The notes beneath the pieces were generated by a model that made no database searches, was not told the DNA's origin, and saw only the letters and a program-made list of their open reading frames with translations. A stretch of 60,072 nt of DNA from a virus. Its lineage: Duplodnaviria; Caudoviricetes. Both the position numbers and the translations under genes were made by a program. Location: IMG/VR virus record IMGVR_UViG_3300045838_000006, positions 1 to 60,072 of that record; one strand, 5' to 3'. Within the stretch, counting starts at the first letter, position 1, and every line of letters starts with the position of its first letter. This document shows positions 2,136 to 54,501 of the stretch, piece by piece.

Positions 2136-2489
2136 ATGTTGCCGCCTAAGAGAACCCGCCCCCGCAGCGGAATCCTCCGCGCCCCGCCGCGCGAGTTTCC
2201 CCGGCATCGGAAATTCGTGCGCTCGTTTGTCTGCGCCGTGCCCGGTTGCGGAAAGCCTGCGGTATGCGCTCACCTTCGGACCGCGGCAAACTCAGGCAGA
2301 GCTCTTAGGCCTGCCGATTGGTTCACCGTCCCATTGTGCAACGATCATCATGCCGAGCAAGAAGGACGCACCGGATCGTTCTGCAAAAAATACGGCGTGG
2401 ATCTGTGGGCGCTTGCCGCCGAGCTGGCGCGCAAGTCTCCCGACCTAAAGATGCGGGAAGCGATGCGTGCCACAGCGCACGTCGAATGA
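2136..2489 (+). CDS. DUF968-like putative HNH/zinc-binding nuclease
   Basis: CAVPGC...AHLR...DWFTVPLCNDHHAEQ. Confidence 0.75.
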   Translation: MLPPKRTRPRSGILRAPPREFPRHRKFVRSFVCAVPGCGKPAVCAHLRTAANSGRALRPADWFTVPLCNDHHAEQEGRTGSFCKKYGVDLWALAAELARKSPDLKMREAMRATAHVE

Positions 2490-2515
2490 ATTCTAGGTGA
2501 AGGGATTGCGCACCG

Positions 2516-3034
2516 ATGAATCCAGATACCAGCGTATCACCCGGCGATCGGGAGCCGACCTCCTCCGAGGCCAGCGCGCGGGGGGATGCCCTCAGTTTGT
2601 GGCGCGACCTGTGCGAGAAGGACGATCGCACGTCGCCGGAAGATTATCCCGACATGGCGCTCATTACCGAAGACGAATTTGTCTACGTCTTCAATGCTGG
2701 CGGTAAGGCGTGGCAGGAGCGCGCCGCCACAGCCGAGCGGGAGAGGGACGCTGCGGTTGCGACGTACGAGGATGAAGAGGCCGCGCATCAAGATACGTTA
2801 CGGCTGTGGAAAGAAGCGGCAAACGAGCGCGACCAGCTCCGCGCCCAACTCACCGAGGCGAAGAAGGTGGTGGCGCAGGCGCGTCGAGCGCGCGCGGTTA
2901 TCGGCTTCGATTTGCGCGACAAGATTGAGTGGGGGCCAAACTATAACCAAGCCGTAAAAGATATATACGATCGGTTAACAGCGACCCTCGCCGCCTACGA
3001 CGCCGCACACCCGGAGAATAGCGATGACCGATAG
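2516..3034 (+). CDS. Hypothetical coiled-coil protein
   Basis: ORF whose ATG lies at the end of a boundary repeat. Confidence 0.7.
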   Translation: MNPDTSVSPGDREPTSSEASARGDALSLWRDLCEKDDRTSPEDYPDMALITEDEFVYVFNAGGKAWQERAATAERERDAAVATYEDEEAAHQDTLRLWKEAANERDQLRAQLTEAKKVVAQARRARAVIGFDLRDKIEWGPNYNQAVKDIYDRLTATLAAYDAAHPENSDDR

Positions 3035-3275
3035 CTCAAAGCCGATGAAGCTGCGCCTGATCATCGCCGAGATGGACGATCTCGTAGCCTGCTCCGTGGT
3101 GATATTGGATGGCGACCAACAGCTTTACCGCTCCCGCTGGTATCAAGGCGAAGCCCCGGCGCTGCTGGCCTGTAAGGCGGCTCAGCGTTGGTTCAAACGG
3201 CACGTGTCGGGCGACGCCGCACACCCGGAGCTCCCCTCTCCCCCATCAGAAACCGACAATACGATAGAGACGTGA
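3024..3275 (+). CDS. Hypothetical protein
   Basis: Coupled ORF; lies mostly between 19-bp direct repeats. Confidence 0.6.
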   Translation: MTDSSKPMKLRLIIAEMDDLVACSVVILDGDQQLYRSRWYQGEAPALLACKAAQRWFKRHVSGDAAHPELPSPPSETDNTIET

Positions 3276-3325
3276 CATGATTCTTTTGTCGAAATTCCTG
3301 TTCGGTGTTTGAGGGAGGAGCCAAG

Positions 3326-3994
3326 ATGACAGAGCAACCGTCGGTGGCGACGCTGTATCCGGCCGATGACGAGGACTTTGTGGAAACGCCAATCACGGGC
3401 GTTAAGCCCAGCGGCAAAAGCTGGGCGATCCAACAGCAACGCGGCTGGTATCTCTATTGCGGCGACGATTGCCCGATAGAGCCAAAGGTCGGAATGATCG
3501 CGCGCCTGTATCCGAGAGATAACATCGGGCGACGCATTCGCGGCCTATTCATCGACGGGCAATGTTGTTGGTATCGCAGCGAGGCTGACGACAAAGACTA
3601 TCGCGAAATCCAGATGTACGGCAAAGATGCTGCGGATTGGTTGCGGCGCTGGGATGCGGGCGAAGGCGTGTGGTCAATCGAGATGGGCGGGCCCGGGCCG
3701 GGCTATGAACAGTGCATTCACATAACCTGCGCCGAAATTCTGCGCTGGTTTATCGACAACAACGTAGACGCGACGCTTTGGGACGAGAAGGACACAGCGC
3801 GCTCGATCTTCGATCGGATGGAGAAAGCGGTCTCTGAGGTTCCGGCCGTCAAGAAGCTCGGTCTATCGGGAGCGCAATGGGGCGCGGCACACAATCTCGC
3901 CTGTCAATTCTATCGGAGAGGACCGCGCGCCGTGATGCTGGATGAGCGGGTGAAGGAACGGCATATCCAGGTCTGCCGCGTGTTCCCCGGCTAA
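3326..3994 (+). CDS. Hypothetical protein (repeat-flanked cassette)
   Basis: GGAGGAG RBS and ATG lie inside the reverse repeat 3279-3349; forward repeat at 4001-4064. Confidence 0.8.
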   Translation: MTEQPSVATLYPADDEDFVETPITGVKPSGKSWAIQQQRGWYLYCGDDCPIEPKVGMIARLYPRDNIGRRIRGLFIDGQCCWYRSEADDKDYREIQMYGKDAADWLRRWDAGEGVWSIEMGGPGPGYEQCIHITCAEILRWFIDNNVDATLWDEKDTARSIFDRMEKAVSEVPAVKKLGLSGAQWGAAHNLACQFYRRGPRAVMLDERVKERHIQVCRVFPG

Positions 3995-4134
3995 CAACGT
4001 CGCCACCGCGCACGTCCTATGAACCTACGCGATGCGTCGACCGAAATGTCCTTCGAGTAAATAACAATGTTGGATCGTGACCCTCATCGGTACGGCTATG
4101 GCTGAGCCCTCCTTCCCGCAGCGCGAGAGCCGCC

Positions 4135-4317
4135 GTGGCTGAGCGGCGGCCCGTCTTTCGCCAACGTGACATTGATCGCGCCATAGCGGCAGCGAAGGCG
4201 GCGGGCCTGGAGGTTATTGGCGTCCGCGTAGACAAAGACGGGTTCGAGATTAAGACTGCGCCCCCAGGCCAATCACGACAGGCGGGGGCGAACGAATGGG
4301 ACGAGGACTACTCGTGA
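4135..4317 (+). CDS. Small integrase-associated protein (putative excisionase)
   Basis: FRQRDIDRAIAAAKAAGLEV...NEWD; overlaps the integrase start. Confidence 0.6.
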   Translation: MAERRPVFRQRDIDRAIAAAKAAGLEVIGVRVDKDGFEIKTAPPGQSRQAGANEWDEDYS

Positions 4318-5315
4318 GGCTGCCCTACGTCCATACTTTCCGCGACCGGCACGGCAAGGTGCGCCACTATTTCCGGCGGCCTGGTTACAAGCGGATCGCG
4401 CTGCCGGGCGCGCCGAGCTCCACGGAGTTCAAGGCCGCCTACGCAGCCGCGCTCTCGGGCCACAAACTCGAAATAGGGGAGGGGAGATCCCTGAGCGGCA
4501 CCGTGACCGCAGCGATAGCCGCCTATTACCAGGACGCCTCATTCCGCGCCTTAGCGCCAGCTACGCAGAAGATGCGCCGGGCGATCCTTGAACGTTGGCG
4601 CGAGCGCGACGGCGACAAGCGGCTGGCGACCCTGGAGCCAAAGCATATCGCGTTGATGCTCGGCAGGATGAAACCCTTTGCCGCGCGCAACTGGCTCAAG
4701 ACGCTACGCGGGCTGATGGAGTTCGCCGTGCGCACCCGGCTGCGGCGAGACGATCCCACGCGCGCCTTCAAGCCGGTCAAGGTCAGGCCCGGCACTTTTC
4801 ACACATGGACCGAAGATGAGATCGCGCAATATGAACGCCATCATGCGGTGGGGACACGCGCAAGGCTGGCAATGGCGCTCCTTCTTTACACGGCGGCGCG
4901 GCGAGGCGATATGGTTAGGCTCGGCCCGCAGCATGTCCGTGCCGGGCGGATTAGTTATCGTCAGCAGAAAACGGGACGGGCGCTGGCGATCCCGTTACAT
5001 CCCTCGCTCGCCGATGAACTCTCGCATCATCCGGCTGAACATCTCACGTTCCTGACCACGGCACGAGGCGCACCGTTCTCGGCGGCCGGCTTTGGCAATA
5101 TGTTCCGTCGCTGGTGCAATGAGGCTGGTCTGCCGCATTGCTCAGCGCACGGCTTGCGGAAAGCTCAGGCGCGCCGTCTCGCGGAGGCGGGTTGCTCCGC
5201 GCATGAAATTGCGTCGATTACCGGGCATAGGACGCTTGCGGAGGTTCAGCGGTATGCTGATGCCGCCGATCAAGCGAGGCTCGCCGAGCGGGCCATAGAC
5301 AAGACGAGGAAATGA
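4314..5315 (+). CDS. int: Tyrosine recombinase/integrase
   Basis: Catalytic R (TAARRGD), K (QQKTG), HGLRK, TGH and Y (QRYAD); N-terminal DRHGKVRHYFRR domain. Confidence 0.95.
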   Translation: MRLPYVHTFRDRHGKVRHYFRRPGYKRIALPGAPSSTEFKAAYAAALSGHKLEIGEGRSLSGTVTAAIAAYYQDASFRALAPATQKMRRAILERWRERDGDKRLATLEPKHIALMLGRMKPFAARNWLKTLRGLMEFAVRTRLRRDDPTRAFKPVKVRPGTFHTWTEDEIAQYERHHAVGTRARLAMALLLYTAARRGDMVRLGPQHVRAGRISYRQQKTGRALAIPLHPSLADELSHHPAEHLTFLTTARGAPFSAAGFGNMFRRWCNEAGLPHCSAHGLRKAQARRLAEAGCSAHEIASITGHRTLAEVQRYADAADQARLAERAIDKTRK

Positions 5316-5833
5316 TGGGCTACAGGTTCGTCCATAGCTTTACCGATCGACACGGGAAAGTTCGGCACTATTTTCGCCGTGCGGGCGTCCCTCGAATAGC
5401 ATTGCCGGCACCGAATTCGCCGGAGTTTCGCGCTGCCTATGATGCGGCCCTCGGCAAGCAGCGGCGCGATACCGGTCTAGCGCTTCCGCCTTTCCAGATC
5501 CGAGATAATCGCAAGAGGACAAAGCTCAGCATAGAGCGCCAACGCGCACGCGGTTCGACGGCTGGCGTTTACCTACTTTTGCAGGGAGATCGCATCGTCT
5601 ACGTCGGCTCGAGCGAGGATATGCCCACGCGCGTCGTTGCGCACCGCTCCAATGGACGCCAATTCGATCGCGCCTACTACATCAGCGTGCCCGGCGCTAA
5701 GGACCGCGCGCGTCTGGAGGCGATCTTAATCGCGACCCTAAGACCGGAACAGAACCGGGCCGGGATGCGAAACCTCTTAGGGCAAACCATAGCGTCGAGT
5801 TTGCCAAATGGAGCGCAAGCCATTGAGTTATAA
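5312..5833 (+). CDS. Integrase N-terminal domain fused to a GIY-YIG nuclease
   Basis: First ~48 aa are paralogous to the integrase N-terminus; then GVYLL..IVYVGSS..TRVVAH..LEAILIATLRPEQN. Confidence 0.8.
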   Translation: MMGYRFVHSFTDRHGKVRHYFRRAGVPRIALPAPNSPEFRAAYDAALGKQRRDTGLALPPFQIRDNRKRTKLSIERQRARGSTAGVYLLLQGDRIVYVGSSEDMPTRVVAHRSNGRQFDRAYYISVPGAKDRARLEAILIATLRPEQNRAGMRNLLGQTIASSLPNGAQAIEL

Positions 5834-5850
5834 CGGGGCCAAAATGGGGA

Positions 5851-5863
5851 TGGCGACCCCGGC
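5851..5863 (-). other. Candidate attP core (tRNA 3'-end-like)
   Basis: Reverse strand GCCGGGGTCGCCA ends in CCA and resembles (from recall) an alphaproteobacterial tRNA-Arg 3' end; just downstream of the int operon. Confidence 0.5.
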
Positions 5864-6049
5864 CGTTCTGACATCAACCGGGAGAGTCAGCGCCCTACGA
5901 AAGCAACCCGGCATCTGCGCGCCAAAGGCTTGCGGTTCGGGCTGGCAAACCCCTTCCTCTTATCGCCTCCCGGCACCCAAAGTTTTTAGGGCAAAGGATC
6001 GGCGTTCGACGCGGTGCGTGCGCCCATGCGCCGGGGCTGTGGCGCGGTG

Positions 6050-7384
6050 ATGCGCGGCGGCACCTTGTTCAGCGGCATCGGCGCGCCGGAGTGCGCGGCC
6101 CCCTTCATTGATTGGCGCTGGGCTGCCGAGATCGATCCGTTCGCGAGCGCCGTCCACGCGCATCGCTTCCCCGACACCGTGAACCTTGGCGATGTGACAG
6201 AGATTGATCCCGATGCAATTGAGCCTGTGGACCTCATCGTGTTCGGATCGCCCTGCCAATCGTTCAGCGTCGCCGGAAAGCGGCTCGGACTGGATGACCC
6301 GCGCGGCAACCTGGCCCTCGTCGCCCTTGCGCTTATTGGACGCCTTCGGCCCCGTTGGGTGGTTTTCGAGAACGTGCCCGGCCTCCTGTCATCGGACGAA
6401 GGACGGGACTTTGGCATCTTCCTCGGGCTCCTGGGGCAATGCGGGTATGGGTTCGCCTACCGAATTCTTGACGCTCAGCATTTCGGAGTTCCCCAGCGGC
6501 GGCGCCGCGTCTTCGTTGTCGGATATCTTGGAGACTGGCGACCTGCCGCAGCGGTACTTTTTGAGCCCGAAAGCCTGCGCGGGGATCCTCCGCCGCGCCG
6601 AGAAGCGGGGGAGAGAGTTGCCGCCAGCCTTACGCACGGCGTTGATGGCGGCGGCAAGGGCGGATACGCAGGACGCAGGCGCGAGGACGATGTAAACCTA
6701 ATCGCCCCAACGCTGCCCGCTCGCAAGACGGCGGCGGGCGGCGGTATGGGAACCGACTTTGACTGCGACGGCGGGCTGATCGCCAAGAGCATTCGGGGTC
6801 GCGCACAACCCTCGCACCGCGAGGACAGCGACACATACATCGCCGTCTTCGGCGGCAACCGCCAGTCGGGCGAGATTGAAGTCGCCACGGCGGTCAACGC
6901 GCATGGCGGGCCGCATGGCCGGCTCGATTTCGAGAGCGAGACCTTTGTCGCACACGCGCTCGATGCGTACAGCGCGGGGCGGGCAACGGAAGACGGCACC
7001 GGGAGAGGGACGCCGCTCGTCGCACACGCGCACATGGGTTCGCGTCGCCAAAATGGCGTCGCTATTGGCCCCGTGTGCCCTGGTGGAGACACGTCGAAAA
7101 GCTACTGGAAAGAGATAGAAGTAGCGCGCACCCTCGCCGTTGAAAATCTGCCCTATCAAGGCACCCGCGTCGCATATCCCAATATGAGCGTCCGCAGGCT
7201 CACGCCCCGCGAATGCGAACGCTTGCAGGGCTTCCCCGATAATTGGACGGCCGTAACCTACCGGGGCAAGGCCGCCGCCGATGGACCGCGCTACCGCGCC
7301 CTGGGGAACAGCATGGCGGTCCCGGTCGTGCGATGGATACTGGAGCGCATCGTTGAATTTGCGCGACAGAGAGAAGCCGCATGA
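6050..7384 (+). CDS. C5-cytosine DNA methyltransferase
   Basis: LFSGIG (I), GSPCQSFS (IV), ENVPG (VI), QRRRRVF (VIII), RRLTPRECERLQGFP (IX), ALGNSM (X). Confidence 0.95.
   Translation: MRGGTLFSGIGAPECAAPFIDWRWAAEIDPFASAVHAHRFPDTVNLGDVTEIDPDAIEPVDLIVFGSPCQSFSVAGKRLGLDDPRGNLALVALALIGRLRPRWVVFENVPGLLSSDEGRDFGIFLGLLGQCGYGFAYRILDAQHFGVPQRRRRVFVVGYLGDWRPAAAVLFEPESLRGDPPPRREAGERVAASLTHGVDGGGKGGYAGRRREDDVNLIAPTLPARKTAAGGGMGTDFDCDGGLIAKSIRGRAQPSHREDSDTYIAVFGGNRQSGEIEVATAVNAHGGPHGRLDFESETFVAHALDAYSAGRATEDGTGRGTPLVAHAHMGSRRQNGVAIGPVCPGGDTSKSYWKEIEVARTLAVENLPYQGTRVAYPNMSVRRLTPRECERLQGFPDNWTAVTYRGKAAADGPRYRALGNSMAVPVVRWILERIVEFARQREAA
6213..6695 (+). CDS. Nested out-of-frame ORF resembling the M.EcoHK31I beta polypeptide
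   Basis: SSGSWGNAG..ISEFPS..SSLSDILET..RYFLSPKACAGILRRAEKRGRELPPAL in the +1 frame. Confidence 0.6.
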   Translation: MQLSLWTSSCSDRPANRSASPESGSDWMTRAATWPSSPLRLLDAFGPVGWFSRTCPASCHRTKDGTLASSSGSWGNAGMGSPTEFLTLSISEFPSGGAASSLSDILETGDLPQRYFLSPKACAGILRRAEKRGRELPPALRTALMAAARADTQDAGARTM

Positions 7385-7466
7385 CCCCGGCAGGACGGGC
7401 ATGCTGACCCCCAACCATGATTTTATTGTCGAAGCACCGCATCGGTGCGCAATCGGAGGAGTTCTA

Positions 7467-7766
7467 ATGGCCGACGACGTGCGCGGTGGCGAGGCCGCTC
7501 CCCTGAGACATTACGCGCGAGGTCGATTTGACGGCAGTATCGAAATCGTTGATCGCCAGTTCGATTTTGTCCGGGCGATACTTCCCTATGATTACAGGTT
7601 CACATGCAGCGCCGACCAACACGCCCATGCCGAACGTATTTGTCAGGCGTTAGAAGGGCCTATGGCCTCGCGTGGCGTCGTTCGAATCGCCACAGCTACG
7701 GGGCCTGACAATCTTGGCTCCTCAGAGGGCGCACCGATGCCGTCTTTCGAGAAAAAACCCGCATGA
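7467..7766 (+). CDS. Hypothetical protein (repeat-flanked cassette)
   Basis: GGAGGAG and ATG inside repeat 7419-7491; C-terminus encoded by repeat 7688-7757. Confidence 0.7.
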   Translation: MADDVRGGEAAPLRHYARGRFDGSIEIVDRQFDFVRAILPYDYRFTCSADQHAHAERICQALEGPMASRGVVRIATATGPDNLGSSEGAPMPSFEKKPA

Positions 7767-7794
7767 GCATCGGCTCAACCAACCCGGAGTTCAC

Positions 7795-8226
7795 ATGACG
7801 ATCGGTGGCGACGTTTGGAAGTGCTTTCACTGCGGAGAGACATTCACCGACACCGAGAGCGCGAGGTTGCATTTCGGCGACAACTGTCTGAGCGATCCCG
7901 CTTGCCAGATCGACATCAAGCAAGTGCGCGAAATGGAGCAGCTACACGCTCGCCATCTTGCGGAGGACAGCGACACAGACCGCGCTATGTATCGGATGCA
8001 GGCAGAGCACGCCGTTGCTCTGCGGTGCGAGGAAGAGATCGGCTATGCGCGTGGCCTACACGACGGCAAACGATACTGGATCGAGCAGTTCGTCACGCAA
8101 ATCCTTCACGGCGACGAGACGCATCGGCAATGGTTGCGGGACAAGGGCGAGGAATTCGTTGTCGCCACCGACGGGTCGGCTGACAATCCAGGGACAGAAG
8201 ACTTTGGGGATAAGGATCGGTGTTAG
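7795..8226 (+). CDS. Hypothetical zinc-finger protein (repeat-flanked cassette)
   Basis: WKCFHCGETF...ARLHFG. Confidence 0.75.
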   Translation: MTIGGDVWKCFHCGETFTDTESARLHFGDNCLSDPACQIDIKQVREMEQLHARHLAEDSDTDRAMYRMQAEHAVALRCEEEIGYARGLHDGKRYWIEQFVTQILHGDETHRQWLRDKGEEFVVATDGSADNPGTEDFGDKDRC

Positions 8227-9008
8227 ACAACGAACCAAGATCGTCTCGCAACCCGGCTGTGGCACGGCCGAACCGCTCGTCCGAAGAGATGCGGATGCGA
8301 GAGATTGTCGCCGCGCGGCTCCGCTCTTTCTGGCCCACGGCGCGGATCATCCATGAACTGCCGGTCAGATATTCGACCAACCGGCTCGATATGGCGGCGA
8401 TCACGGAAACTGAATTGATCGGGGTCGAGATCAAATCGTCACGCGACGTGCTGGGCCGTCTAGAGGCGCAGATACGCGCTTTTATGCCTGTCACGCATCG
8501 GCTCTGGGTCTGTCTCGCCCCGGAGCACAACGCGAAACTGCCTGATATTGTCGAGGAGCGCGAGCGCTCGATTCATTACCGCCGACAATTCACTCCGGCG
8601 CAAGAGATCATCGAGCGTGTCGCGGATCGCTGGGTCGAGGTTTGGACCGTCGATGCTGACGCGGGTGAATCGTTCGGCACGCGCGGCGGGTATCTGAGCC
8701 AATGGGATCATCGCATCCCCTGGGGCGCAGCGATGCTCGATATGCTCTGGAATAGCGAATTGGCCGCGATGGGAGGTTCAAATTCTCGACACGACCATCA
8801 AGTGCGCCGCCTCGCTGATGCGATGACCGGCTGCGAGATTGTGCGCGGTGTATGCGCGGCGCTTCGTGCCAGGGACGCATTCGCGGCGGAATCCGACCCG
8901 CCGATCCGAGGCGATGTTTTCGCCACCGCACAAGGCGTGTGTCGCCTAGGTACATCGCCGAACACCGAGTCGATCTTCGAGAATAAAACGACCTCTGACC
9001 CCGGTTGA
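8220..9008 (+). CDS. PD-(D/E)XK nuclease-fold protein, sce7726-like
   Basis: IIHELPV..RLDMAAI..GVEIKSSRDVLGRLEAQI. Confidence 0.7.
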   Translation: MLDNEPRSSRNPAVARPNRSSEEMRMREIVAARLRSFWPTARIIHELPVRYSTNRLDMAAITETELIGVEIKSSRDVLGRLEAQIRAFMPVTHRLWVCLAPEHNAKLPDIVEERERSIHYRRQFTPAQEIIERVADRWVEVWTVDADAGESFGTRGGYLSQWDHRIPWGAAMLDMLWNSELAAMGGSNSRHDHQVRRLADAMTGCEIVRGVCAALRARDAFAAESDPPIRGDVFATAQGVCRLGTSPNTESIFENKTTSDPG

Positions 9009-9012
9009 GCGC

Positions 9013-9192
9013 ATGACCCAGGATACCGACCAACCCGCTGTGGACGTAACGCACCCCGATTATTGCCGTCATTGGGAGCCGGCAGGCTGCAAACTCGGCT
9101 TAGCTTGTGCGTGCTCATGGTTCGGCACGAAGAAACCGTGGAGAGCGCGCATCACCCCCGCTACGGGGCGCGATAATCTGGACCGGAGATGA
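9013..9192 (+). CDS. Small Cys-rich hypothetical protein
   Basis: MTQDTDQPAVDVTHPDYCRHW..CKLGLACAC; ATG inside repeat 9001-9044. Confidence 0.5.
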   Translation: MTQDTDQPAVDVTHPDYCRHWEPAGCKLGLACACSWFGTKKPWRARITPATGRDNLDRR

Positions 9193-9195
9193 GGG

Positions 9196-9483
9196 ATGAG
9201 CGGCTGGATTGATCCTCTCGGAACGCGAGCATTGCACCGTTTCATTCAAGCCGAGCAACATCGGCTAGAGCCGCTAATTGCAGAAGGGTATCGGCGCTGG
9301 CCGAAAAGCCGGAAGCTGTCGAAGCTCCGCGCCCGATATGATGAGCTTGGGAAGCTCCACGCTTTAATCCAAGCCGTCGAGAGACCAGGCATCGAGCTGC
9401 TGCCGTACAAAGAACTGGTGAATGTGCGCGACCGGCATGATCTGATTGACGCGCTCGTGCCACGCGATTTGATGACGCAATGA
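9196..9483 (+). CDS. Hypothetical protein
   Basis: ORF with RBS; followed by a boundary repeat. Confidence 0.65.
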   Translation: MSGWIDPLGTRALHRFIQAEQHRLEPLIAEGYRRWPKSRKLSKLRARYDELGKLHALIQAVERPGIELLPYKELVNVRDRHDLIDALVPRDLMTQ

Positions 9484-9566
9484 CAGCCTCGCCACCGATT
9501 GTCGAGTGAGGATCTAAGCTGAAACGATTGGCACCGTCGAATGAACTCTAGGTGAAGGGATGAAGG

Positions 9567-9761
9567 ATGAGCGGCACTCCGCTGTATTTGCTCGGAGCGG
9601 CGATAATAGGCGGCATTATAGGCCATTATGGCGTGCCACTCACATACGACGATCCGTGGCAATTCTTCTTGGGAGGGCTTGGGCTCTGGATTTGGGGCGG
9701 CTTTCTCGATGCCCTGCTGCTACGACCTCGCCACCGATCGTCGCCTGACGGCCTAAGTTAA
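9567..9761 (+). CDS. Small two-TM membrane protein
   Basis: Two hydrophobic segments. Confidence 0.65.
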   Translation: MSGTPLYLLGAAIIGGIIGHYGVPLTYDDPWQFFLGGLGLWIWGGFLDALLLRPRHRSSPDGLS

Positions 9762-9821
9762 AATGATGGCGCACCGAAAATGATGGCGCACCGAAAAATC
9801 GCTTCGACAAAAGGAATCTCG

Positions 9822-10636: not shown

Positions 10637-10637
10637 G

Positions 10638-10805: not shown

Positions 10806-11140
10806 CTCTCTCTGAGTCCGGTAGGGATTTGCTGTCGCAGTGATCGATTCTACCGGCGCACCACGATCTCGCCACGACATGATTCGTGGCAAACTATATC
10901 ACCGGATACAGTCATTTGTCACCCTCAGAATGCCTCGCTCATCATGGCAATGATACGAATCCCATCCGTTCGGGATAAACTCGACATGGCAGCATCGAGG
11001 ATCGGAGATCAGGGTATCGGGCGGTTTGGGGTTGGAACAGGAAGCGAGAGAGAGTAGGATAATCAGCGGCGCTACTGGCGTGCTCGCTTGGCGGAACGGC
11101 AGAGGGAATTATCCGGTTGACGTACCAGGATTCTCACAGT

Positions 11141-11443
11141 ATGCTCGCAACCCATTGCGAACGCGACGATTCCGCTGAGATTGAGGTTACGCCAGAGATG
11201 GTCGAGGCGGCCTGCCGCATCCTTGGCGGATACAACCCAAAGTTTGATCTGGAAGACGCTACCGTTGTAGCGATTTACCGCGCCATGGTTAAGGCAAGGT
11301 ATCGGGGTATTTCGGCCGCTCCCGAGTATGACTGGCGCGTGCCGCAGTTAGAAGCCGCCCTGAAATCCGTAGAGAACTCTGGATGTAATGATCCTTTGGG
11401 GGCGAGTGATCATCCAAGACCCGCGGCAACGGCAGTCCGCTAG
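11141..11443 (+). CDS. IS passenger hypothetical protein
   Basis: IEVTPEMVEAA..VAIYRAM; 3' half overlaps the antisense HEPN-like gene. Confidence 0.45.
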   Translation: MLATHCERDDSAEIEVTPEMVEAACRILGGYNPKFDLEDATVVAIYRAMVKARYRGISAAPEYDWRVPQLEAALKSVENSGCNDPLGASDHPRPAATAVR

Positions 11444-11834
11444 GGTTGGGCATCCTAGCGGTTTGCAATTTCATACAACGCGCCGCGATTTCTGGCTGTG
11501 TAAATAGGATCGGGTCAGCGCGATGCGCGAATTGATTACGGATCCATCGAATATGATCCATATCCGCGCGCGTCTTTGGCCCATAAAGACCGAGCGCATA
11601 GCCAATCACGATCTTGCCGTGCATCGTGGTTAGCGGCGCTGTTTGTGCATCAAAGACACGCTCTTTCCAATCGGTCCCGAGCGGAATGAACCGAGTTGCT
11701 ATAATGCCGCTTAACATGTCGTCTAGCCATGCGGCGCAGGCGATAGCGGCGACCCGATCGTTCTGATGCTGCATTTCTTCAAAGAGCACCGTTAGCTGAG
11801 TAACGACGTCTTCTATGTCATCCCGTAATGACAT
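11289..11834 (-). CDS. MltR-like/HEPN-domain passenger protein
   Basis: DRVAAIACAAWLDD..APL..KI..YALGL..IRWIRNQFAH (RxxxxH). Confidence 0.75.
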   Translation of the reverse strand: MSLRDDIEDVVTQLTVLFEEMQHQNDRVAAIACAAWLDDMLSGIIATRFIPLGTDWKERVFDAQTAPLTTMHGKIVIGYALGLYGPKTRADMDHIRWIRNQFAHRADPILFTQPEIAARCMKLQTARMPNPSGLPLPRVLDDHSPPKDHYIQSSLRISGRLLTAARASHTRERPKYPDTLP

Positions 11835-11847
11835 ATGCTTCTCCCCT

Positions 11848-12021
11848 ATGAGCGATCAGGGAAGTGACGACGAACAGGCCGCGCAGCGCCGTGACAAGTT
11901 GCTGCTGCGGTTATTAAAGACGCCTCCCCAGCCTCGCCCCAAACGGGAGCGCGGCAAAGGAAAGCCTACTAAGACTCGCGCTTCGCGCGCCAGCGCAAGA
12001 AAGCGCGGAGCTTCTGCTTAG
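11848..12021 (+). CDS. Small basic IS-associated protein
   Basis: RRDKLLLRLLKTPPQP; convergent with the transposase. Confidence 0.5.
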   Translation: MSDQGSDDEQAAQRRDKLLLRLLKTPPQPRPKRERGKGKPTKTRASRASARKRGASA

Positions 12022-12032
12022 TTGTTTTCGGC

Positions 12033-12956: not shown

Positions 12957-12969
12957 GGCTGATTTGCCC

Positions 12970-13191
12970 TTATTTGCTCTCTACGCGCGGAATAAGCCGA
13001 TCACGGATGAACTCCGCGCCGGGTTTGCTGAGACTGCGCGTTTCTTTGCTGAGTTCGTCGGCAAGTTCGCTGAGCATCTGGACCACGTCTGCCTTGGGGA
13101 GAATGTCCCGCTTGGCGAGCGTCTCGATCAACCGCGAGACAAGGACGTAAGCCAGAAAGCCAGCGTCGGGATTACCGGGTGCGTCGGGCAT
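12970..13191 (-). CDS. IS passenger hypothetical protein
   Basis: ORF upstream of the transposase, inside the TIRs. Confidence 0.6.
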   Translation of the reverse strand: MPDAPGNPDAGFLAYVLVSRLIETLAKRDILPKADVVQMLSELADELSKETRSLSKPGAEFIRDRLIPRVESK

Positions 13192-13351
13192 GACGGGGTC
13201 CGCCTCATCAACTGAGACGCGATCCTATCAAATGGCCCGTGGTACGTCAACCGGATAATTCCCACGGCAGACGCAACGGGCTTAAACCCCGCGGCCTTTT
13301 AGGGCGTCCCGGTTCAAATCCGGGAGCGAGCCCCAGTAGCGCAGTCGGCAT

Positions 13352-49659: not shown

Positions 49660-49874
49660 TCTTCCATCCCGAGCTGAGCCCGTGCTGCCAATCGGGCTGC
49701 CTTGCGAATGCGCCGCCAGAATTTGCGCTTCACCCACGACCATTGCCCGGCACGCGAGCCCAATATGCGCCGAGCGCGGCGGCTCGACATATCGCATTCA
49801 TCCCCGCCAACGGGCCGATCCCTTCCAACCGTGCCACCGACGGGGCTTATGAGGCTATGCGAGTTGTCTAACAC
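49656..49874 (-). CDS. Small Arg-rich protein
   Basis: GTG start inside a boundary repeat (MLDN..); GGDECD..SRRARR..KRKFWRRIRK. Confidence 0.55.
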   Translation of the reverse strand: MLDNSHSLISPVGGTVGRDRPVGGDECDMSSRRARRILGSRAGQWSWVKRKFWRRIRKAARLAARAQLGMEE

Positions 49875-49887
49875 CGATTCTTCCCCA

Positions 49888-51031: not shown

Positions 51032-51100
51032 AATGTTCCCCCGAATGTGCAAAAGGTGCAGTCTCAACCTTGTGAAATGTTCCCCCCGAGATACGCTAGG

Positions 51101-51301
51101 TCATGCCGCTATCCTTTCCTCAACGTCCCATTCGTGAGCCAAAAGCCAGCGGACCATCCAGTTCACAACCGGCGTCCAAGCCATTCTTTTCACTAGCCGA
51201 CCGGTCAACGCAAAATAGGCTTCTGTTGGACTCACATCCCTCGCGCGCCAATACCGACGCTGCTCGTCCGCTATTGTCACCGCTTCTGCATACCGCAACA
51301 T
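51101..51301 (-). CDS. Hypothetical protein
   Basis: AGGAG RBS. Confidence 0.55.
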   Translation of the reverse strand: MLRYAEAVTIADEQRRYWRARDVSPTEAYFALTGRLVKRMAWTPVVNWMVRWLLAHEWDVEERIAA

Positions 51302-51379
51302 GAATATACTCCTGAATGTTCTTCACCCTCGCGGGCTATTTAATCCACAAGTGAAGAAACCCGTGGAGATTAACGAACT

Positions 51380-51580
51380 CTATGCCGCCTCCGGCTTCTC
51401 AGAGGGAGGGTGATATTTCCGCTCCCGTAATTCGTACACGCTGGCGAGGGCGCGGGAATCGATGAAGATCCCCCGCGCAATTCTCGATTCCATTTCCGCC
51501 AACCAATCTACCTGTCTCAGGGTGAGACACCGTTCCGGGTGAAGCCAAGGGAGAGATTTACAGGCATATTGCGATGTCAT
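51380..51580 (-). CDS. Hypothetical protein
   Basis: Coupled ORF. Confidence 0.55.
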   Translation of the reverse strand: MTSQYACKSLPWLHPERCLTLRQVDWLAEMESRIARGIFIDSRALASVYELRERKYHPPSEKPEAA

Positions 51581-52785
51581 GCGTTGCTCTTTTCGTCGAA
51601 GGACATTTCGGTGTTCGACCGCTCGCCTCGTTCCATAGGAAGATTCGCTGTGGCGAAAAGCGGCCCAGCATCGCTCTTGCGGTTCCGGTTCTTCACGGTG
51701 ACGGAATGCCGCCCCTCGCCCTCATAGAATGCCAACCGCTCTTTGATGTCGGCGATGTATTGTGCTTCTCGTTCGATCAGAATGCAGTCACGCCCGGTCG
51801 CTAAAGCTGCAACCCCCGTTGTCCCGGAACCTGCAAACGGATCCAACACCAATCCGCCAGGAGGCGTAACCAATGGGACGAGCCACTTCATCAATTCAAC
51901 GGGCTTCACGGTAGGATGACGCGAGCCCCAGCGATCTTCTTTGTCGGCTTTGGCGCTGTAGAAGAAACGAGCCGCAGAGCCGCTGTCACCGTGCGGCGTG
52001 GCGACCTCTTGCTCGCCGAAATTGCCATAAATGCCATTGCTCTTCTTGGGTAGCTTTGGACGCTCGTATAACTGCCCCGGTGCATCCGGAAACCCCTCTA
52101 GCACTTCCTCGCTGCCGTCGTGGCAGATGTTGGCGGGCCAGCGGCCTATATTAGGATCGAGGTCGTGTATTGTTCCGTCGCGAATACCGCCATTATAAAT
52201 GTGCGGCATCTTATTCTTTGAGAGCGATGCGGGGACACCACGATTGGTGCCAATCCGACACTCATCCACCTGTAGCGTTCTCTTGCCTCCTGGCTTATAG
52301 GCCAAGACAATCGGCTCGTAGGCTGGCTTGAGCATGTCCCGGCGTTTCGGGAATCCACTGCCAAATAGCCACATGATGCAGTCTTGAATGATGAACCCGG
52401 CATCCTCGATTGCCGTTGTCAGACGGTGATAGGTCCGCGTTCCCCCAAAGGCGACAAGGAACGCACCGGGCCGCATGACGTTGGCGATCGTGGCCCATGT
52501 CTTAGGCTGAAATGCGATGTCGCCGCCGTCCCACTGTTGCCCCATAAAGCCAGAAGCGAGCCGCTGGTAATGATTGGTCCCGTCGCTATTGCGTGGCCCC
52601 GGAGCGCCGAACGCGCCGCCAAAGCGCTTCGTCATGTCCGTTAAGTGATAGGGCGGATCGGTCACAACCGCATCGACAGTCGGGAGATGCGGGGCGATCG
52701 CTCGACAGTCACCGTGATAAAGCTCGGCGCCGCCAAACCGTGCCACAGCGCAACCCGTGTGAGATCTTGGCTCGTTGTCTAACAC
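51577..52785 (-). CDS. N6-adenine/N4-cytosine DNA methyltransferase (beta class)
   Basis: VTDPPY..HPTVKP..VLDPFAGSGTTG. Confidence 0.93.
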   Translation of the reverse strand: MLDNEPRSHTGCAVARFGGAELYHGDCRAIAPHLPTVDAVVTDPPYHLTDMTKRFGGAFGAPGPRNSDGTNHYQRLASGFMGQQWDGGDIAFQPKTWATIANVMRPGAFLVAFGGTRTYHRLTTAIEDAGFIIQDCIMWLFGSGFPKRRDMLKPAYEPIVLAYKPGGKRTLQVDECRIGTNRGVPASLSKNKMPHIYNGGIRDGTIHDLDPNIGRWPANICHDGSEEVLEGFPDAPGQLYERPKLPKKSNGIYGNFGEQEVATPHGDSGSAARFFYSAKADKEDRWGSRHPTVKPVELMKWLVPLVTPPGGLVLDPFAGSGTTGVAALATGRDCILIEREAQYIADIKERLAFYEGEGRHSVTVKNRNRKSDAGPLFATANLPMERGERSNTEMSFDEKSNA

Positions 52786-52791
52786 CGATTC

Positions 52792-52989
52792 TTATCCCCC
52801 AAATGCCCGATGAAGGGCCGCACACGCGAACATGAAAGCAAATGGCGCAATGGCTAAGAACGCACCCCACACCGTTGCGCGCCAATCACTCTGCATCCAC
52901 CACGGTGAGGGTTCGTTCTTCACAAACGGCGTTGATCCTGTTAGCCGACAATCGGCCTGCATATCCCCTGTCCCTGACTCACTTGCCAT
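52792..52989 (-). CDS. Small membrane protein
   Basis: C-terminal TM segment. Confidence 0.5.
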   Translation of the reverse strand: MASESGTGDMQADCRLTGSTPFVKNEPSPWWMQSDWRATVWGAFLAIAPFAFMFACAALHRAFGG

Positions 52990-53305
52990 GCTCGGCTTGA
53001 TGCAGAAGGTTCAGAAAGTCGTCGGCATAGAGGATGGTCAGCCAGCGGCGTTTCCCGTTCCTCCGGTGAAACACAGCCGGCATAGATCCAACCCGCGCCT
53101 CCCCTGCGGCCTGTTCGATCCAGTCGAAGGGATTGCCCTTTTCAGTGCGCTTGACCTCTATGTGAACATCCGGGAGCCCGACGCAATCAGGACTGTCGCC
53201 GCCGCCTTGGTATTGAACGCCCCGGCGTGCTTCGGTGAACCCGTGCTCGCGACAGAGGGCGGCCACCTCAAGCTCGCCGACCTTCCCTTTGCGCTTACTG
53301 TTCAC
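52979..53305 (-). CDS. PD-(D/E)XK Holliday-junction-resolvase-like protein
   Basis: SKRKGKVGELE..ARRG.QY.GG.DSPD..HIEVKR. Confidence 0.8.
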   Translation of the reverse strand: MNSKRKGKVGELEVAALCREHGFTEARRGVQYQGGGDSPDCVGLPDVHIEVKRTEKGNPFDWIEQAAGEARVGSMPAVFHRRNGKRRWLTILYADDFLNLLHQAEHGK

Positions 53306-53311
53306 CGCTTC

Positions 53312-53923
53312 CTAATCCTCTGCATGATCCACGCTAGACCTAAGGCTATCCACTGAAGGAGATTCTTCACCCTTTCCCCCAAGGTGAATGTTTTTGTCGA
53401 AAGACGGTATCGGTGTTCCAACTGAGGAGCCCGGATTGTCAGGCAACCCGGCTGTGGCGAGGTAGCGGGCGCGTGCCGCAACTTTCGTGCCGCCATCTGA
53501 GCTTGGTCTAACGCCAGTAACCCGCACTAAGAAGTTCCATGCCGGCGGCCGTCCGCGCCCGGTGTAATGCCACAGGTCTTTAACGCGCCTTTCCGTCAAT
53601 TGGCGCTGTTTGAATAAGCGCATCCAAATGGCGTTCTGCACTGCTTGATAAGTTACTGGTAGGGATTTCGCTATTCGCGTCCATGTCCAATTCGCCATTC
53701 GGCGTTGCATCGCCCAATCAATTTCAGCCTCACTCAGTTCAGGAAGCGGCACTCCGCACGACATGCTGAGCAGGCCAATCTGGCCGAGCGAGCCAAGAAC
53801 CCGCTCTATAGCGTCATATGCAAGTCTAGCCTCCGCATCGTTTTCGAAGGTGATCGTCACTACCGGCGGCCCTTTCGGCCGCCGGACCACAGCCCCGGCG
53901 TCAGACAATCTAGGCTGGCTCAT
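53312..53923 (-). CDS. Hypothetical HTH-containing protein (repeat-flanked cassette)
   Basis: WTWTRIAKSLPVTYQAVQN; repeats at both ends. Confidence 0.65.
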   Translation of the reverse strand: MSQPRLSDAGAVVRRPKGPPVVTITFENDAEARLAYDAIERVLGSLGQIGLLSMSCGVPLPELSEAEIDWAMQRRMANWTWTRIAKSLPVTYQAVQNAIWMRLFKQRQLTERRVKDLWHYTGRGRPPAWNFLVRVTGVRPSSDGGTKVAARARYLATAGLPDNPGSSVGTPIPSFDKNIHLGGKGEESPSVDSLRSSVDHAED

Positions 53924-54189
53924 TCGCTTGCCCACTGTGCAAGTATCCGTCTCAGCGCTTTTCTCTCGACGTCTTGGGCATCCATTTCAGCCAAGAGAGC
54001 CCTCGCTAAATCTCGGCGATGTGCCGCCGAGAATCGGCGGTAATAACTCTCGACGGCCCAGCCAATTGGACGGTTCATCACGCGTGCCAAATGCTTCCGG
54101 GTATGCTTCGGGAACACGACCCGTATAGCTGCGGCTTCGTTAATCACGGTTGCCAACACTTTGGGGGGATGCACTCGCGTACCTCGCAA
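53920..54189 (-). CDS. Hypothetical protein, possible DNA-binding
   Basis: Coupled ORF. Confidence 0.5.
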   Translation of the reverse strand: MRGTRVHPPKVLATVINEAAAIRVVFPKHTRKHLARVMNRPIGWAVESYYRRFSAAHRRDLARALLAEMDAQDVERKALRRILAQWASE

Positions 54190-54252
54190 GCCACACTAGG
54201 GGCGTTGCAACTGTTACGGAGTACGTTGGTGAGGGTCAGCGGCAGCACGGTC

Positions 54253-54501
54253 TTACTCCTCCCCCGATAGGGCTGTGCTGTCGCCCTCGCTGATATTTGC
54301 CGCAGGCGCATCGGTGTTCGACGTGTCACCTGGAATACGCACGACGATCGGTGGCGAGAATTTCATGCGGCGGTGCCGATCAATGCCAAGAGCTGGCCGA
54401 AATTCCCATTCGCTCCATTCGGCAACAGTCAGGACGTAAGGCTTGCCGCCGCGCCATCTGATAGACGCAGCGCATTGCTCCTTACTGCGCGGCATGTTCA
54501 C
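54253..54501 (-). CDS. Hypothetical protein
   Basis: C-terminus encoded by a boundary repeat. Confidence 0.5.
   Translation of the reverse strand: MNMPRSKEQCAASIRWRGGKPYVLTVAEWSEWEFRPALGIDRHRRMKFSPPIVVRIPGDTSNTDAPAANISEGDSTALSGEE

What the first reader, a model, noticed from the sequence alone, without database searches (positions are those of the whole stretch)
2469..54501. The repeat is translated, giving unrelated proteins shared N- and C-terminal peptides and supplying RBS/starts
Seen at C-termini, all in one register: IATATGPDNLGSSEGAPMPSFEKK (ends 7766), LATAGLPDNPGSSVGTPIPSFDKN (53312 gene), FATANLPMERGERSNTEMSFDEK (MTase 51577), FATAQGVCRLGTSPNTESIFENK (ends 9008), VATDGSADNPGTEDF (ends 8226) and RATAHVE (ends 2489). 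Seen at N-termini: MLDNEPRS (8220 and 52785), MLDNSHS (49874) and PSVATL (3326 and a mini-ORF at 58103). The reverse copies at 3279, 7419 and 7767 contain GGAG(G) plus ATG. Inference: the element acts as an expression adaptor for captured ORFs, or adds a functional tag. This is reminiscent of Rickettsia palindromic elements, which lie in frame within genes.
Basis: partly seen in the sequence, partly recalled or inferred. Interest (0 to 1): 0.7.

Follow-up and report, generated by a model that had tools for sequence, protein, structure and literature searches.

The report
Translated gene-junction repeats bracketing phage accessory genes
A soil phage carries about twenty copies of a short DNA module at the edges of its accessory genes; the module supplies their start signals on one side and extra, translated tail codons and stop signals on the other, and most likely marks where genes are swapped in and out rather than adding a useful protein tag.

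Summary
The window is a complete 59.9-kb phage genome. It holds 19 clear and 2 marginal copies of a 50-90-nt module, defined by a head TCGCCACMG and a core ACACCGAT. All copies lie in the two early/accessory arms.

- **Polarity:** the head always abuts a gene body. Antisense copies sit at 5' ends and carry the SD and start codon. Sense copies sit at 3' ends and are read through.
- **Cassettes:** eight inverted pairs bracket one or two ORFs each.
- **Homologues:** for the four cargo families with good homologue sets (N6/N4 methylase, Sce7726-like, gene F, Zn-ribbon gene K), homology ends within 0-7 codons of the head at every tested end but one (gene K's 3' end). No homologue carries the repeat peptides.

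- Only 6 of 8 translated sense copies use one register.
- The 53312-gene peptide is internal, not terminal.
- Two sense copies are not translated.

The module has no hairpin, promoter, terminator, transposase or IntI. I found it in no other phage, metagenome contig or alphaproteobacterial genome searched.

Best reading: a portable translation adaptor and recombination boundary, with the peptides as by-products. "Expression adaptor" is partly supported; "functional tag" is not. Earlier notes of this scan describe similar boundary repeats in other soil phages.

The parts
2467..2518 (+). Sense copy S2467. It ends ORF 1992-2489 (last 7 codons, RATAHVE*) and holds the SD and ATG 2516 of the next gene.
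   Evidence: nhmmer E 8e-7; frames; sequence
3284..3350 (-). Antisense copy A3350. It carries GGGAGGAG plus ATG 3326 and the first 9 codons (MTEQPSVAT) of ORF 3326-3994.
4000..4061 (+). Sense copy S4000, the partner of A3350. It is not translated by the cargo, whose stop is at 3992-3994.
7424..7492 (-). Antisense copy A7492. It carries GGAGGAG plus ATG 7467 of ORF 7467-7766.
7687..7766 (+). Sense copy S7687. It is read through as the last 26 codons of ORF 7467-7766. The stop overlaps the ATG of an 11-codon mini-ORF (7763-7798).
7767..7811 (-). Antisense copy A7811. It carries GGAG plus ATG 7795 and encodes MTIGGDV of gene K (7795-8226).
   Evidence: (E 0.0016)
8162..8210 (+). Sense copy S8162 (truncated). 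It is read as VATDGSADNPG... at the end of gene K.
   Evidence: (E 0.0087)
8214..8265 (-). Antisense copy A8265. It carries GGGGATAAGGA plus GTG 8220 and codes the 17-residue leader of the Sce7726-like gene 8220-9008.
8920..9008 (+). Sense copy S8920. It is read as the last 28 codons of 8220-9008.
9006..9044 (-). Marginal antisense copy A9044. It holds ATG 9013 and encodes MTQDTDQPAVD of ORF 9013-9192.
   Evidence: E 1.9; sequence
9489..9562 (+). Sense copy S9489 (composite). It lies after the stop of 9196-9483, and its tail holds the SD and ATG 9560/9567.
   Evidence: E 6e-4
9728..9812 (+). Sense copy S9728 with a duplicated core. It is read in a different frame by ORF 9567-9761 and holds start candidates 9780/9822 of the next gene.
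49831..49880 (+). Antisense copy A49831 (relative to leftward genes). It carries GGGGAAGA plus GTG 49874.
51577..51656 (-). Sense copy S51656. It is read as the last 25 codons of the methylase 51577-52785. The stop overlaps ATG 51580 of the next gene.
52740..52791 (+). Antisense copy A52740. It carries GGGGGATAAGA plus GTG 52785 (or GTG at codon 14) of the methylase.
53392..53460 (-). Sense copy S53460. It is read in frame inside gene F (53312-53935), with 25 more codons after it.
53884..53935 (+). Marginal antisense copy at the start of gene F.
   Evidence: E 0.33; E 0.78
54296..54357 (-). Sense copy S54357 inside ORF 54253-54501. Its outer 27 nt are the exact inverted repeat of 54752-54778.
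54715..54778 (+). Antisense copy A54715. It is read in frame as residues about 207-225 of ORF 54482-55387, between a DUF3102 part and an unrelated part.
57739..57790 (-). Antisense copy A57790. Its head variant forms GGAGAGG five nt before GTG 57801.
58104..58148 (-). Antisense copy A58146. It is spanned by a 17-codon mini-ORF (58103-58156) that overlaps the upstream stop and the downstream ATG 58156.
   Evidence: (E 0.0032)

Best explanation
The repeat is a gene-junction module private to this phage lineage. It acts as a two-sided translation adaptor and most likely also as the recombination boundary of accessory-gene cassettes.

**Shown from the sequence**
- The module is polar. Its head (TCGCCACMG) always abuts the body of the neighbouring gene.
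- Upstream of a gene it lies antisense. There it provides a Shine-Dalgarno sequence, the start codon and the first 7-17 codons.
- Downstream of a gene it lies sense. There it is read through, mostly in one frame, and adds 6-50 codons.
- A sense copy ends at a stop that overlaps or closely precedes the next start (ATGA, TAATG, or a 4-nt gap), so ribosomes are passed to the next cistron.
- The gene bodies in between are unrelated to each other. Their relatives elsewhere lack the repeat-coded ends.

**Inferred**
- The shared peptides are junction by-products, not a tag.
- The modules are portable homology. Start-less and stop-less gene bodies are gained, lost and exchanged at them by relaxed homologous recombination. 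The phage encodes an ERF-family annealing protein and a YqaJ-type exonuclease.
- The inverted geometry keeps a cassette from being deleted by recombination between its own flanks. It also lets cassettes work in either of the two divergently transcribed arms.
For: **Copies and placement**
- 19 clear and 2 marginal copies lie only in 49.8-58.1 kb and 2.4-9.8 kb. None lies in the roughly 38-kb structural region.
- Orientation alternates at 17 of 19 transitions (binomial p 3.6e-4).
- In a crude automatic set of 43 ORFs, 8 have an antisense copy at the 5' end, 8 have a sense copy at the 3' end, and 5 have both (Fisher p 0.0026). By hand I count 8 bracketed cassettes.

**Homology ends at the heads**
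- Methylase, 20 of 20 relatives.
- Sce7726-like gene, 15 of 15.
- Gene F, 33 of 33.
- Gene K N-terminus, 9 of 10.
- DNA similarity to two plasmids starts at 8269, four nt after the head of A8265.
- ORF 54482-55387 is chimeric. Residues 2-116 match DUF3102 relatives. Residues 239-284 are 65% identical to a separate 167-aa protein. An antisense copy is read in frame between the two parts.

**Start and stop signals**
- SD plus start lies inside antisense copies.
- Stop/start overlaps and two coupled mini-ORFs span copies.

**Recombination**
- One contig in another soil run (X3; the equal-sized X4 shows the same and is probably the same data) joins 8197 to 8975 in register within the module. It skips 777 nt and has 20 other letters that contain the family core.
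- ERF and YqaJ domains are present.
- An Erf/Exo pair recombines 78%-identical sequences as well as lambda Red does (passages read in PMC3945230).
- Head types and core types occur in mixed combinations among the copies (alignments).
Against: - Only one genome carries the family, so no comparison shows an actual swap at a module.
- The one variant contig is thin: depth 2.7, shorter side 36 letters, laid at 80% likeness. It could instead be a differently composed module behind the same gene in a related strain.
- The copies are diverged. Mean column identity is 34%. Only the 54296/54752 pair shares 23 or more identical bases, the minimal pairing length quoted for Red-beta in PMC3945230. Present-day recombination between most copies would therefore be inefficient.
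- Cognate flanking pairs are only modestly more alike than non-cognate pairs (mean score 8.0 against 2.1, permutation p 0.026). Two of the eight pairs drive this.
- Start codons are inferred, not measured.
- Cargo genes 3326-3994 and 7467-7766 have no homologues, so their reality rests on ORF length alone.
- No RNA or protein data exist.
Confidence: 0.5

Rival explanations
1. MITE-like selfish element. The mobile unit would be the tail-to-tail palindrome (a sense copy plus an antisense copy, about 105-135 nt, with the heads as terminal inverted repeats). It would insert at gene junctions and survive because its two ends carry outward translation signals. The 'cassettes' would then be ordinary genes lying between two insertions.
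For: - Three junctions hold both halves: 7687-7811, 8162-8265 and 8920-9044.
- The family is multicopy, short, restricted to one lineage and has no coding capacity of its own.
- In-frame fusions of MITE ORFs with host genes are known, with RPEs the extreme case (passages read in PMC10969869).
Against: - 15 of 21 copies would then be solo halves. The gene-bracketing view leaves only 5 solos.
- An antisense copy at the 5' end and a sense copy at the 3' end of the same gene co-occur more often than chance.
- There are no target-site duplications at the best-preserved pair.
- No cognate transposase is present. The only IS, of the IS1595 type, has unrelated ends.
- The palindromes fold no better than shuffles (z -0.5, -1.2, -0.7).
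- No copies appear in 401 alphaproteobacterial genomes or in the other collections searched.
Confidence: 0.18
2. Protein-binding boundary or control sites. Each module carries two direct CACCGA-type boxes about 42-44 nt apart. A phage DNA-binding protein would bind them, for example a regulator, a partition-like protein, or the nuclease-like ORF 5312-5833 that shares the integrase N-domain. Translation of the module would be incidental.
For: - Conservation lies in linear words (head CCACNG invariant in 19 of 19 copies; core ACCGA in most), not in structure.
- Some heads read CCACCGAT, the same word as the core.
- Integrase residues 11-61 are 65% identical to residues 6-55 of the next ORF.
Against: - This does not explain why heads coincide to the codon with the ends of homology.
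- It does not explain why starts and stops lie in the module.
- No binding protein has been identified and nothing was tested directly.
Confidence: 0.12
3. Site-specific recombination sites, either integron attC-like or shufflon-like inversion sites. The phage tyrosine recombinase would use them to insert or flip cassettes.
For: - Orientation alternates so that every segment lies between inverted sites.
- A tyrosine recombinase gene sits at 4296-5315, next to copy S4000.
- GTTAGAC in 3 copies fits GTTRRRY (the core rule is recalled).
- One pair has perfect 27-nt inverted ends.
Against: - None of the three tail-to-tail junctions has both attC core words.
- The other copies read GTTCGAC, which does not fit.
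- There is no hairpin stability.
- The integrase gives only sub-threshold Xer-type NCBIfam hits and no IntI model.
- The variable head base (A or C) differs within 3 of 7 pairs.
- No strand-changing joints appeared in the contigs laid, although contigs drop rare variants.
Confidence: 0.07
4. RNA-level switch. The 3' sense copy contains CUCCUC and CACC. It would pair with the SD-bearing antisense copy of the same or the next cistron, so that translation of one region unmasks a ribosome-binding site.
For: - Inverted copies are complementary by construction. Arms 7422-7461 and 7718-7757 are 80% complementary, with GGAGGAG facing CTCCTC.
- Stop/start overlaps suggest coupling.
Against: - RNAalifold finds 0 conserved pairs on either strand.
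- Ten folds give z between -1.2 and +0.9.
- 19 copies give a mean z of +0.1 on both strands.
- Most cognate pairs are poorly complementary.
Confidence: 0.06
5. Functional peptide tag, for example for localisation, degradation or assembly, added to unrelated proteins.
For: - Four fully translated sense copies differ more at third codon positions (0.36, 0.44, 0.58 per position). The pairs are not independent, and all copies together show 0.50, 0.54, 0.58.
- The one variable base inside the invariant head block is a synonymous Thr position in that frame (my reading).
Against: - The peptides share little beyond A-T-A/D and S-F-[DE]-x-K.
- Three frames are used and 2 of 10 sense copies are untranslated.
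- A second frame is open in 12 of 15 copies, so openness is not special to the frame used.
- tblastn against the phage collection gave one hit, at E = 9.
- Among the 290 proteins fetched, the tail motifs appear at termini only in the window's own proteins.
Confidence: 0.03

Closest known systems
PeSLs (promoter-early stem-loops) of T4-type phages (Arbiol et al. 2010, PMC2839356, abstract read; Comeau et al. 2014, PMC4122927, search listing only)
   Same: - Short repeated cassettes at the borders of non-essential genes in plastic regions of a phage genome.
- Recombination between copies is thought to shuffle, delete and insert genes.
   Different: - PeSLs are a sigma-70 promoter plus a terminator stem-loop, lie in direct orientation and are not translated.
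- No promoter or terminator match coincides with a copy here and there is no stem-loop.
- The signals here are translational, the copies are inverted pairs, and they are read as protein.
Start-associated sequences (SAS/ESAS) of Cluster K mycobacteriophages (Pope et al. 2011, PMC3203893, passages read)
   Same: - A repeat restricted to the non-structural half of the genome.
- It lies at translation starts of genes from different families and contains the SD core.
- Its function is unproven.
   Different: - SAS is 13 bp, lies 3-7 bp upstream of the start, occurs in one orientation only and is not part of the coding sequence.
- The module here is 50-90 nt and contains the start and the first codons.
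- It recurs inverted at 3' ends, where it is read through.
Rickettsia palindromic elements and other intragenic MITEs (review PMC10969869, passages read)
   Same: Repeat DNA read in frame as part of unrelated proteins, giving them shared peptides.
   Different: - RPEs are about 150-bp palindromic elements inserted inside bacterial genes.
- The copies here lie at gene ends, are polar, pair across a gene, carry start and stop signals, show no fold, and sit in a phage.
Integron attC sites and gene cassettes (features recalled, not read)
   Same: Promoterless single-gene cassettes separated by imperfect inverted-repeat junctions.
   Different: There is no IntI, no paired RYYYAAC/GTTRRRY cores, and no hairpin propensity. 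The repeats flank both ends of a gene and are translated.
Mobile insertion cassettes (MICs): passenger genes between IS-type inverted repeats without a transposase (search listing only)
   Same: A single passenger gene between inverted repeats, with no transposase inside.
   Different: There are no target duplications, no matching IS ends, the outer ends are the least conserved part, and the repeats overlap the coding sequence.

Membership tests
MITE / RPE | Short non-coding element with terminal inverted repeats that can fold as a palindrome | tested here: not met
   Three tail-to-tail units exist, but they fold no better than shuffles (z -0.53, -1.20, -0.73). Single copies give a mean z of +0.1 (n=19).
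MITE / RPE | Target-site duplication at the ends | tested here: not met
   None flanks the 54296-54778 unit, whose 27-nt ends are perfect. The ends of the other copies are too fuzzy to judge.
MITE / RPE | Related autonomous IS or transposase with matching ends | tested here: not met
   The ends of the only IS (about 11105 and 13263) are unrelated to the module.
MITE / RPE | Read in frame within unrelated genes | tested here: met
   8 of 10 sense copies and at least 7 of 11 antisense copies overlap ORFs in frame. Two are internal: 53392-53460 and 54715-54778.
PeSL | Sigma-70 promoter plus terminator stem-loop | tested here: not met
   None of the 6 promoter-like or 24 terminator-like matches coincides with a copy.
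PeSL | Located at borders of variable genes, with indels between relatives ending in the repeats | tested here: inconclusive
   The borders are confirmed. Only one thin variant contig was found, joining 8197 to 8975 in register. No close relative was available.
Integron attC | Integron integrase IntI nearby | tested here: not met
   The integrase 4296-5315 gives only sub-threshold Xer-type NCBIfam hits (best 32.6 bits against a cut-off of 329.6).
Integron attC | Paired inverse core and core sites with a folded bottom strand | tested here: not met
   GTTAGAC occurs in 3 copies only, and none of the three tail-to-tail junctions has both cores. There is no fold signal. The core rule is recalled.
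REP / RAYT | Conserved hairpin with a tetranucleotide head, and a RAYT transposase | tested here: not met
   RNAalifold finds 0 pairs. There is no hairpin propensity. No Y1 transposase was seen among the ORFs scanned.
SAS/ESAS | 13-bp asymmetric motif 3-7 bp upstream of starts, in one orientation | tested here: not met
   The module is 50-90 nt, includes the start codon, and occurs in both orientations. The SAS definition comes from PMC3203893.
Shufflon / invertible segments | Identical crossover core in inverted sites, and observed inversion | tested here: inconclusive
   The head base 8 differs within 3 of 7 pairs. No strand-changing joint was found, but only contigs were laid.

The most novel reading that the evidence does not exclude
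Soil phages may carry a natural 'expression-vector' cassette system. A bipartite module, symmetric in orientation, would supply the ribosome-binding site and start on one side, and an open frame, a stop and coupling to the next cistron on the other. Bare gene bodies without their own start or stop would be recombined in, out and between the two divergent early arms at these modules. The phage's own Erf/YqaJ pair, perhaps with a module-directed nuclease, would drive this. It would be a translational, inverted-repeat counterpart of integron cassettes and PeSLs. If the earlier unchecked notes of this scan on other soil phages hold, it is a recurrent solution.
Probability: 0.3. Interest if true: 0.8.

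Novelty: new variant of a known kind. Interest (0 to 1): 0.6.

Why it matters
How phages acquire and express new accessory genes so readily is an open question. Here the junctions themselves carry the translation signals, and they coincide to the codon with the ends of homology of four unrelated gene families. This gives a concrete, testable model for modular gene capture without promoters, terminators, transposases or integron integrases.

It also matters for annotation. The record's own gene calls cut 13 residues from the methylase, 23 from the Sce7726-like gene (removing a conserved motif) and 4 from gene F. Repeat-coded tails could likewise be mistaken for shared domains.

If the modules really work as portable translation adaptors, they could be useful parts for polycistronic expression in alphaproteobacteria. 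The host group is only hinted at, by the best matches of the cargo genes.

Tried and rejected
**Searches for the family elsewhere**
- IMG/VR, three-block pattern: 65 single matches, none matching the HMM.
- IMG/VR, two further patterns: 0 and 3 single matches.
- JGI metagenome contigs: 105 single matches, with no convincing multi-copy locus (one locus gave two weak hits, not examined further).
- 41 portal-related and 45 integrase-related viral loci (697 kb): no hit better than E 1.5.
- 5 whole related records: chance matches only.
- 401 alphaproteobacterial genomes: at most 5 matches in 6.5 Mb, similar to the reversed control. The 60-kb window has 8.
- Portal protein against GTDB genomes: one 27% match, in a Sphingomonas.
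- Phage DNA collection: no close relative.

**Structure and known RNA**
- Rfam and tRNA scans: nothing.
- RNAalifold, single folds and hairpin z-scores: no signal.

**Other ideas rejected**
- Promoters and terminators.
- IS1595 as the mobiliser.
- IntI.
- The peptide as a tag.

**Blanks and limits**
- Cargo 3326-3994 has no phage match and no family.
- No RNA holder was listed for this DNA, so expression is untested.
- A joint from 2844 to 7792 in run X5 has a side of only 21 letters, and I ignored it.
- A methylase relative (P0008, 63% identical) begins MVARF. These are the residues coded across the head/body junction here, so a second carrier of the module may exist. Its contig could not be fetched.
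- Supplementary files of papers were not opened. They might hold lists of PeSL or SAS sites, but no claim here depends on them.
- I found no paper describing inverted, translated junction modules in phages in searches. This is not proof of absence.

Full report
**What the window is.** The first 127 bases repeat at the end. The record is an IMG/VR virus with direct terminal repeats, rated 100% complete. It is therefore a whole phage genome of 59,945 bp, at 58.4% G+C.
- Terminase, portal, scaffold and major head genes lie on the minus strand in the middle.
- One early arm runs rightward from about 57 kb, across the ends, to about 10 kb. It holds YqaJ-type exonuclease, ERF, DUF968, a tyrosine integrase and a C5 methylase.
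- A second early arm runs leftward from about 56.4 to 48.4 kb. It holds DUF3102, a PDDEXK protein, an N6/N4 methylase and an HTH_36 protein.
- No close relative exists in the phage DNA collection.

**The repeat.**
- The exact word TCGCCAC[AC]G occurs 12 times, all in the two arms. About 0.9 is expected by my arithmetic.
- Iterated nhmmer found 15 strong copies. A head+core model found 19 with E <= 0.015. It also found two marginal copies (9006-9044 and 53884-53917) that lie exactly where the pattern predicts. These E-values are partly circular, because the models were built from the copies.
- Two-block patterns give 8-10 matches in the window and 0 in the reversed control.
- The module has a head (TCGCCACMG), about 20 variable bases, a CYWGG-like word, a core (GTCGAACACCGAT or variants), and in many copies a tail ending TTCGASAAAA.
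- Only CCACNG is invariant in all 19 copies, and mean column identity is 34%.

**Geometry.**
- Relative to the local direction of genes, 11 copies are antisense and lie at 5' ends. 10 are sense and lie at 3' ends. The head always faces the gene body.
- Orientation alternates at 17 of 19 transitions (p 3.6e-4).
- By hand I count eight inverted pairs, each bracketing one or two ORFs: 3284-4061, 7424-7766, 7767-8210, 8214-9008, 9006-9562, 51577-52791, 53392-53935 and 54296-54778.
- In a crude automatic set of 43 ORFs, 8 have a 5' antisense copy, 8 have a 3' sense copy and 5 have both (Fisher p 0.0026). That set dropped gene 7467-7766 and picked some wrong frames.
- The bracketing view leaves 5 solo copies. 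The view that the unit is a tail-to-tail palindrome leaves 15.

**Is it translated?**

*C-terminal side.* ORFs are fixed by their stops, so this part is firm.
- Six sense copies are read in the register that gives A-T-A/D: 2467, 7687, 8162, 8920, 51656 and 53460.
- One is read in another frame (9728).
- One begins in a third frame and shifts by a 2-nt deletion (54357).
- Two lie just after the stop (4000, 9489).
- The 53460 copy is followed by 25 more codons.

*N-terminal side.* Starts are inferred, not measured.
- Methylase: there is no start codon between the head and the catalytic DPPY motif, so the start must be GTG 52785 or the GTG at codon 14. Both lie in the repeat. The record's own call uses codon 14.
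- Sce7726-like gene: the nearly invariant NRSSEE motif begins one codon after the head. The record's own call (239 aa) starts at codon 24 and cuts that motif, so a start inside the repeat is more likely.
- Copies 3350, 7492 and 7811 hold GGAGG-type SDs 5-7 nt before an ATG.
- Copy 57790 forms GGAGAGG five nt before a GTG that lies just outside it.
- Copies 7811 and 58146 are each spanned by a mini-ORF (7763-7798 and 58103-58156). Each mini-ORF overlaps the upstream stop (ATGA) and the downstream start.

**Do homologues carry the ends?** They do not.
- Methylase: 20 of 20 aligned relatives share the sequence up to PLF, then stop or continue with an unrelated domain. The head begins in the F codon.
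- Sce7726 family: 15 of 15 relatives align from NRSSEE to DPPI and have unrelated tails.
- Gene F: the best stretch of all 33 relatives ends at or before residue 158, and the head starts at about residue 160.
- Gene K: 9 of 10 phage matches start at residue 7-8 and one at residue 4. In two annotated phages the matched domain lies 11 and 78 codons inside longer proteins. On the C-terminal side the matches end at residues 90-95, about 28 codons before the S8162 head at about residue 123, so that end does not coincide with a head.
- DNA matches to a Methylocapsa plasmid and a Bradyrhizobium plasmid cover only 8269-8488, beginning four nt after the head.
- ORF 54482-55387 is a chimera. Residues 2-116 match DUF3102 relatives, and 14 of 15 relatives cover only 35-39% of the ORF. 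Residues 239-284 match a separate protein. An antisense copy is read in frame between them.
- tblastn of a tail peptide against the phage collection gave one hit, at E = 9.
- Among the 290 proteins fetched, tail motifs at termini occur only in the window's own proteins. The one exception is relative P0008, which begins MVARF. Its contig could not be fetched.

**What it is not.**
- No sigma-70 promoter match or terminator match coincides with a copy.
- There is no Rfam family and no tRNA.
- RNAalifold predicts 0 pairs on either strand.
- Ten folds of copies and junctions give z from -1.2 to +0.9.
- The variable part of the 19 copies has a mean z of +0.1 on both strands. This family is therefore not a hairpin element.
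- The only IS has unrelated ends.
- The integrase is not an integron integrase by NCBIfam.
- The perfect 27-nt inverted ends of 54296-54778 have no target duplication.

**Distribution.** No other carrier was found. I searched IMG/VR, JGI metagenome contigs, related viral records and 401 alphaproteobacterial genomes. Exact-pattern scans can miss diverged relatives, so the correct wording is 'not found in those searched'.

**Variation.**
- The likely source run holds the region unchanged.
- A second soil run holds low-depth pieces of a 97-99% identical strain. It also holds one contig (depth 2.7) that joins 8197 to 8975, skipping 777 nt, with 20 other letters that contain the family core. An equal-sized third run shows the same and is probably the same data.
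- The two breakpoints lie at the same register of two sense copies. The contig therefore shows either a genome that lacks the 8214-8974 cassette or a mosaic module. Either way it is a recombinant within the module.
- This evidence is thin: the shorter side is 36 letters and only contigs were laid.

**Mechanism.** I commit to the following reading.

*Shown.* The modules are two-sided translation adaptors at the borders of accessory gene bodies, and the shared peptides follow from this.

*Inferred.* The modules are also the homology at which gene bodies are exchanged. The grounds are:
- the coincidence of heads with the ends of homology;
- the bracketing of genes by inverted pairs;
- the mixed head and core types among copies;
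- the variant contig;
- the phage's ERF/YqaJ pair;
- the published ability of an Erf/Exo pair to recombine short, 78%-identical sequences (PMC3945230, passages read).

*Weak points.* There is a single genome. The copies are diverged, and only one pair has 23 or more identical bases. Cognate pairs are only modestly more alike than non-cognate pairs. No expression data exist.

*Frame bias.* The bias (6 of 8) is real but modest. Openness does not explain it, because another frame is open in 12 of 15 copies. A third-position excess of differences among four translated copies is too weak and too non-independent to argue for a selected peptide.

**Comparison with what is known.**
- The closest published systems are PeSLs (same role proposed, but a different signal type and geometry) and SAS/ESAS (the same link with starts, but short, one-way and untranslated).
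- RPE-type intragenic MITEs share only the in-frame reading.
- Membership tests fail for MITE/RPE, PeSL, attC, REP and SAS on at least one defining feature each.
- Earlier unchecked notes of this scan describe inverted boundary repeats around accessory genes in several other soil phages. None shares sequence with this one. I did not test those notes.

**Verdict.** 'Expression adaptor' is partly supported and 'tag' is not. The finding is a new variant of the known kind 'gene-boundary repeats of phages', and its interest is moderate to high.

Noticed in passing
window 4296-5833: Integrase residues 11-61 are 65% identical to residues 6-55 of the next ORF (5312-5833). That ORF has no Pfam or NCBIfam hit. 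This is a duplicated N-terminal, possibly DNA-binding, domain on a second protein.
   Followed up: partly
window 11100-13265: An IS with inverted ends (about 11105 and 13263) and a 307-aa ORF (12033-12956) lies next to tRNA-like sequence at 13290-13340. ARAGORN calls no tRNA in the window.
   Followed up: partly
window 54296-54322 and 54752-54778: These are perfect 27-nt inverted repeats with no extension in either direction. The inner halves of the same two copies are only about half identical, which is unexplained under simple duplication and divergence.
   Followed up: partly
protein P0008 (relative of the methylase 51577-52785): A 63%-identical methylase from a 44.8-kb metagenome contig starts MVARF. 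These are the residues coded across the head/body junction in this phage. It is a possible second carrier of the module, but its contig could not be fetched.
   Followed up: partly
window 8220-9008, 51577-52785, 53312-53935: The record's own gene calls start 23, 13 and 4 codons downstream of the longest ORF starts. For 8220-9008 this removes the conserved NRSSEE motif.
   Followed up: yes
window 23220-23419: There are four tandem 54-nt-spaced repeats (68-74% identical) inside ORF 22691-24112 on the minus strand. They probably form a repeated protein motif in a structural gene.
   Followed up: no
window 9728-9812: Copy S9728 carries an internal tandem duplication of its core (GGCGCACCGAAAA twice).
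   Followed up: no
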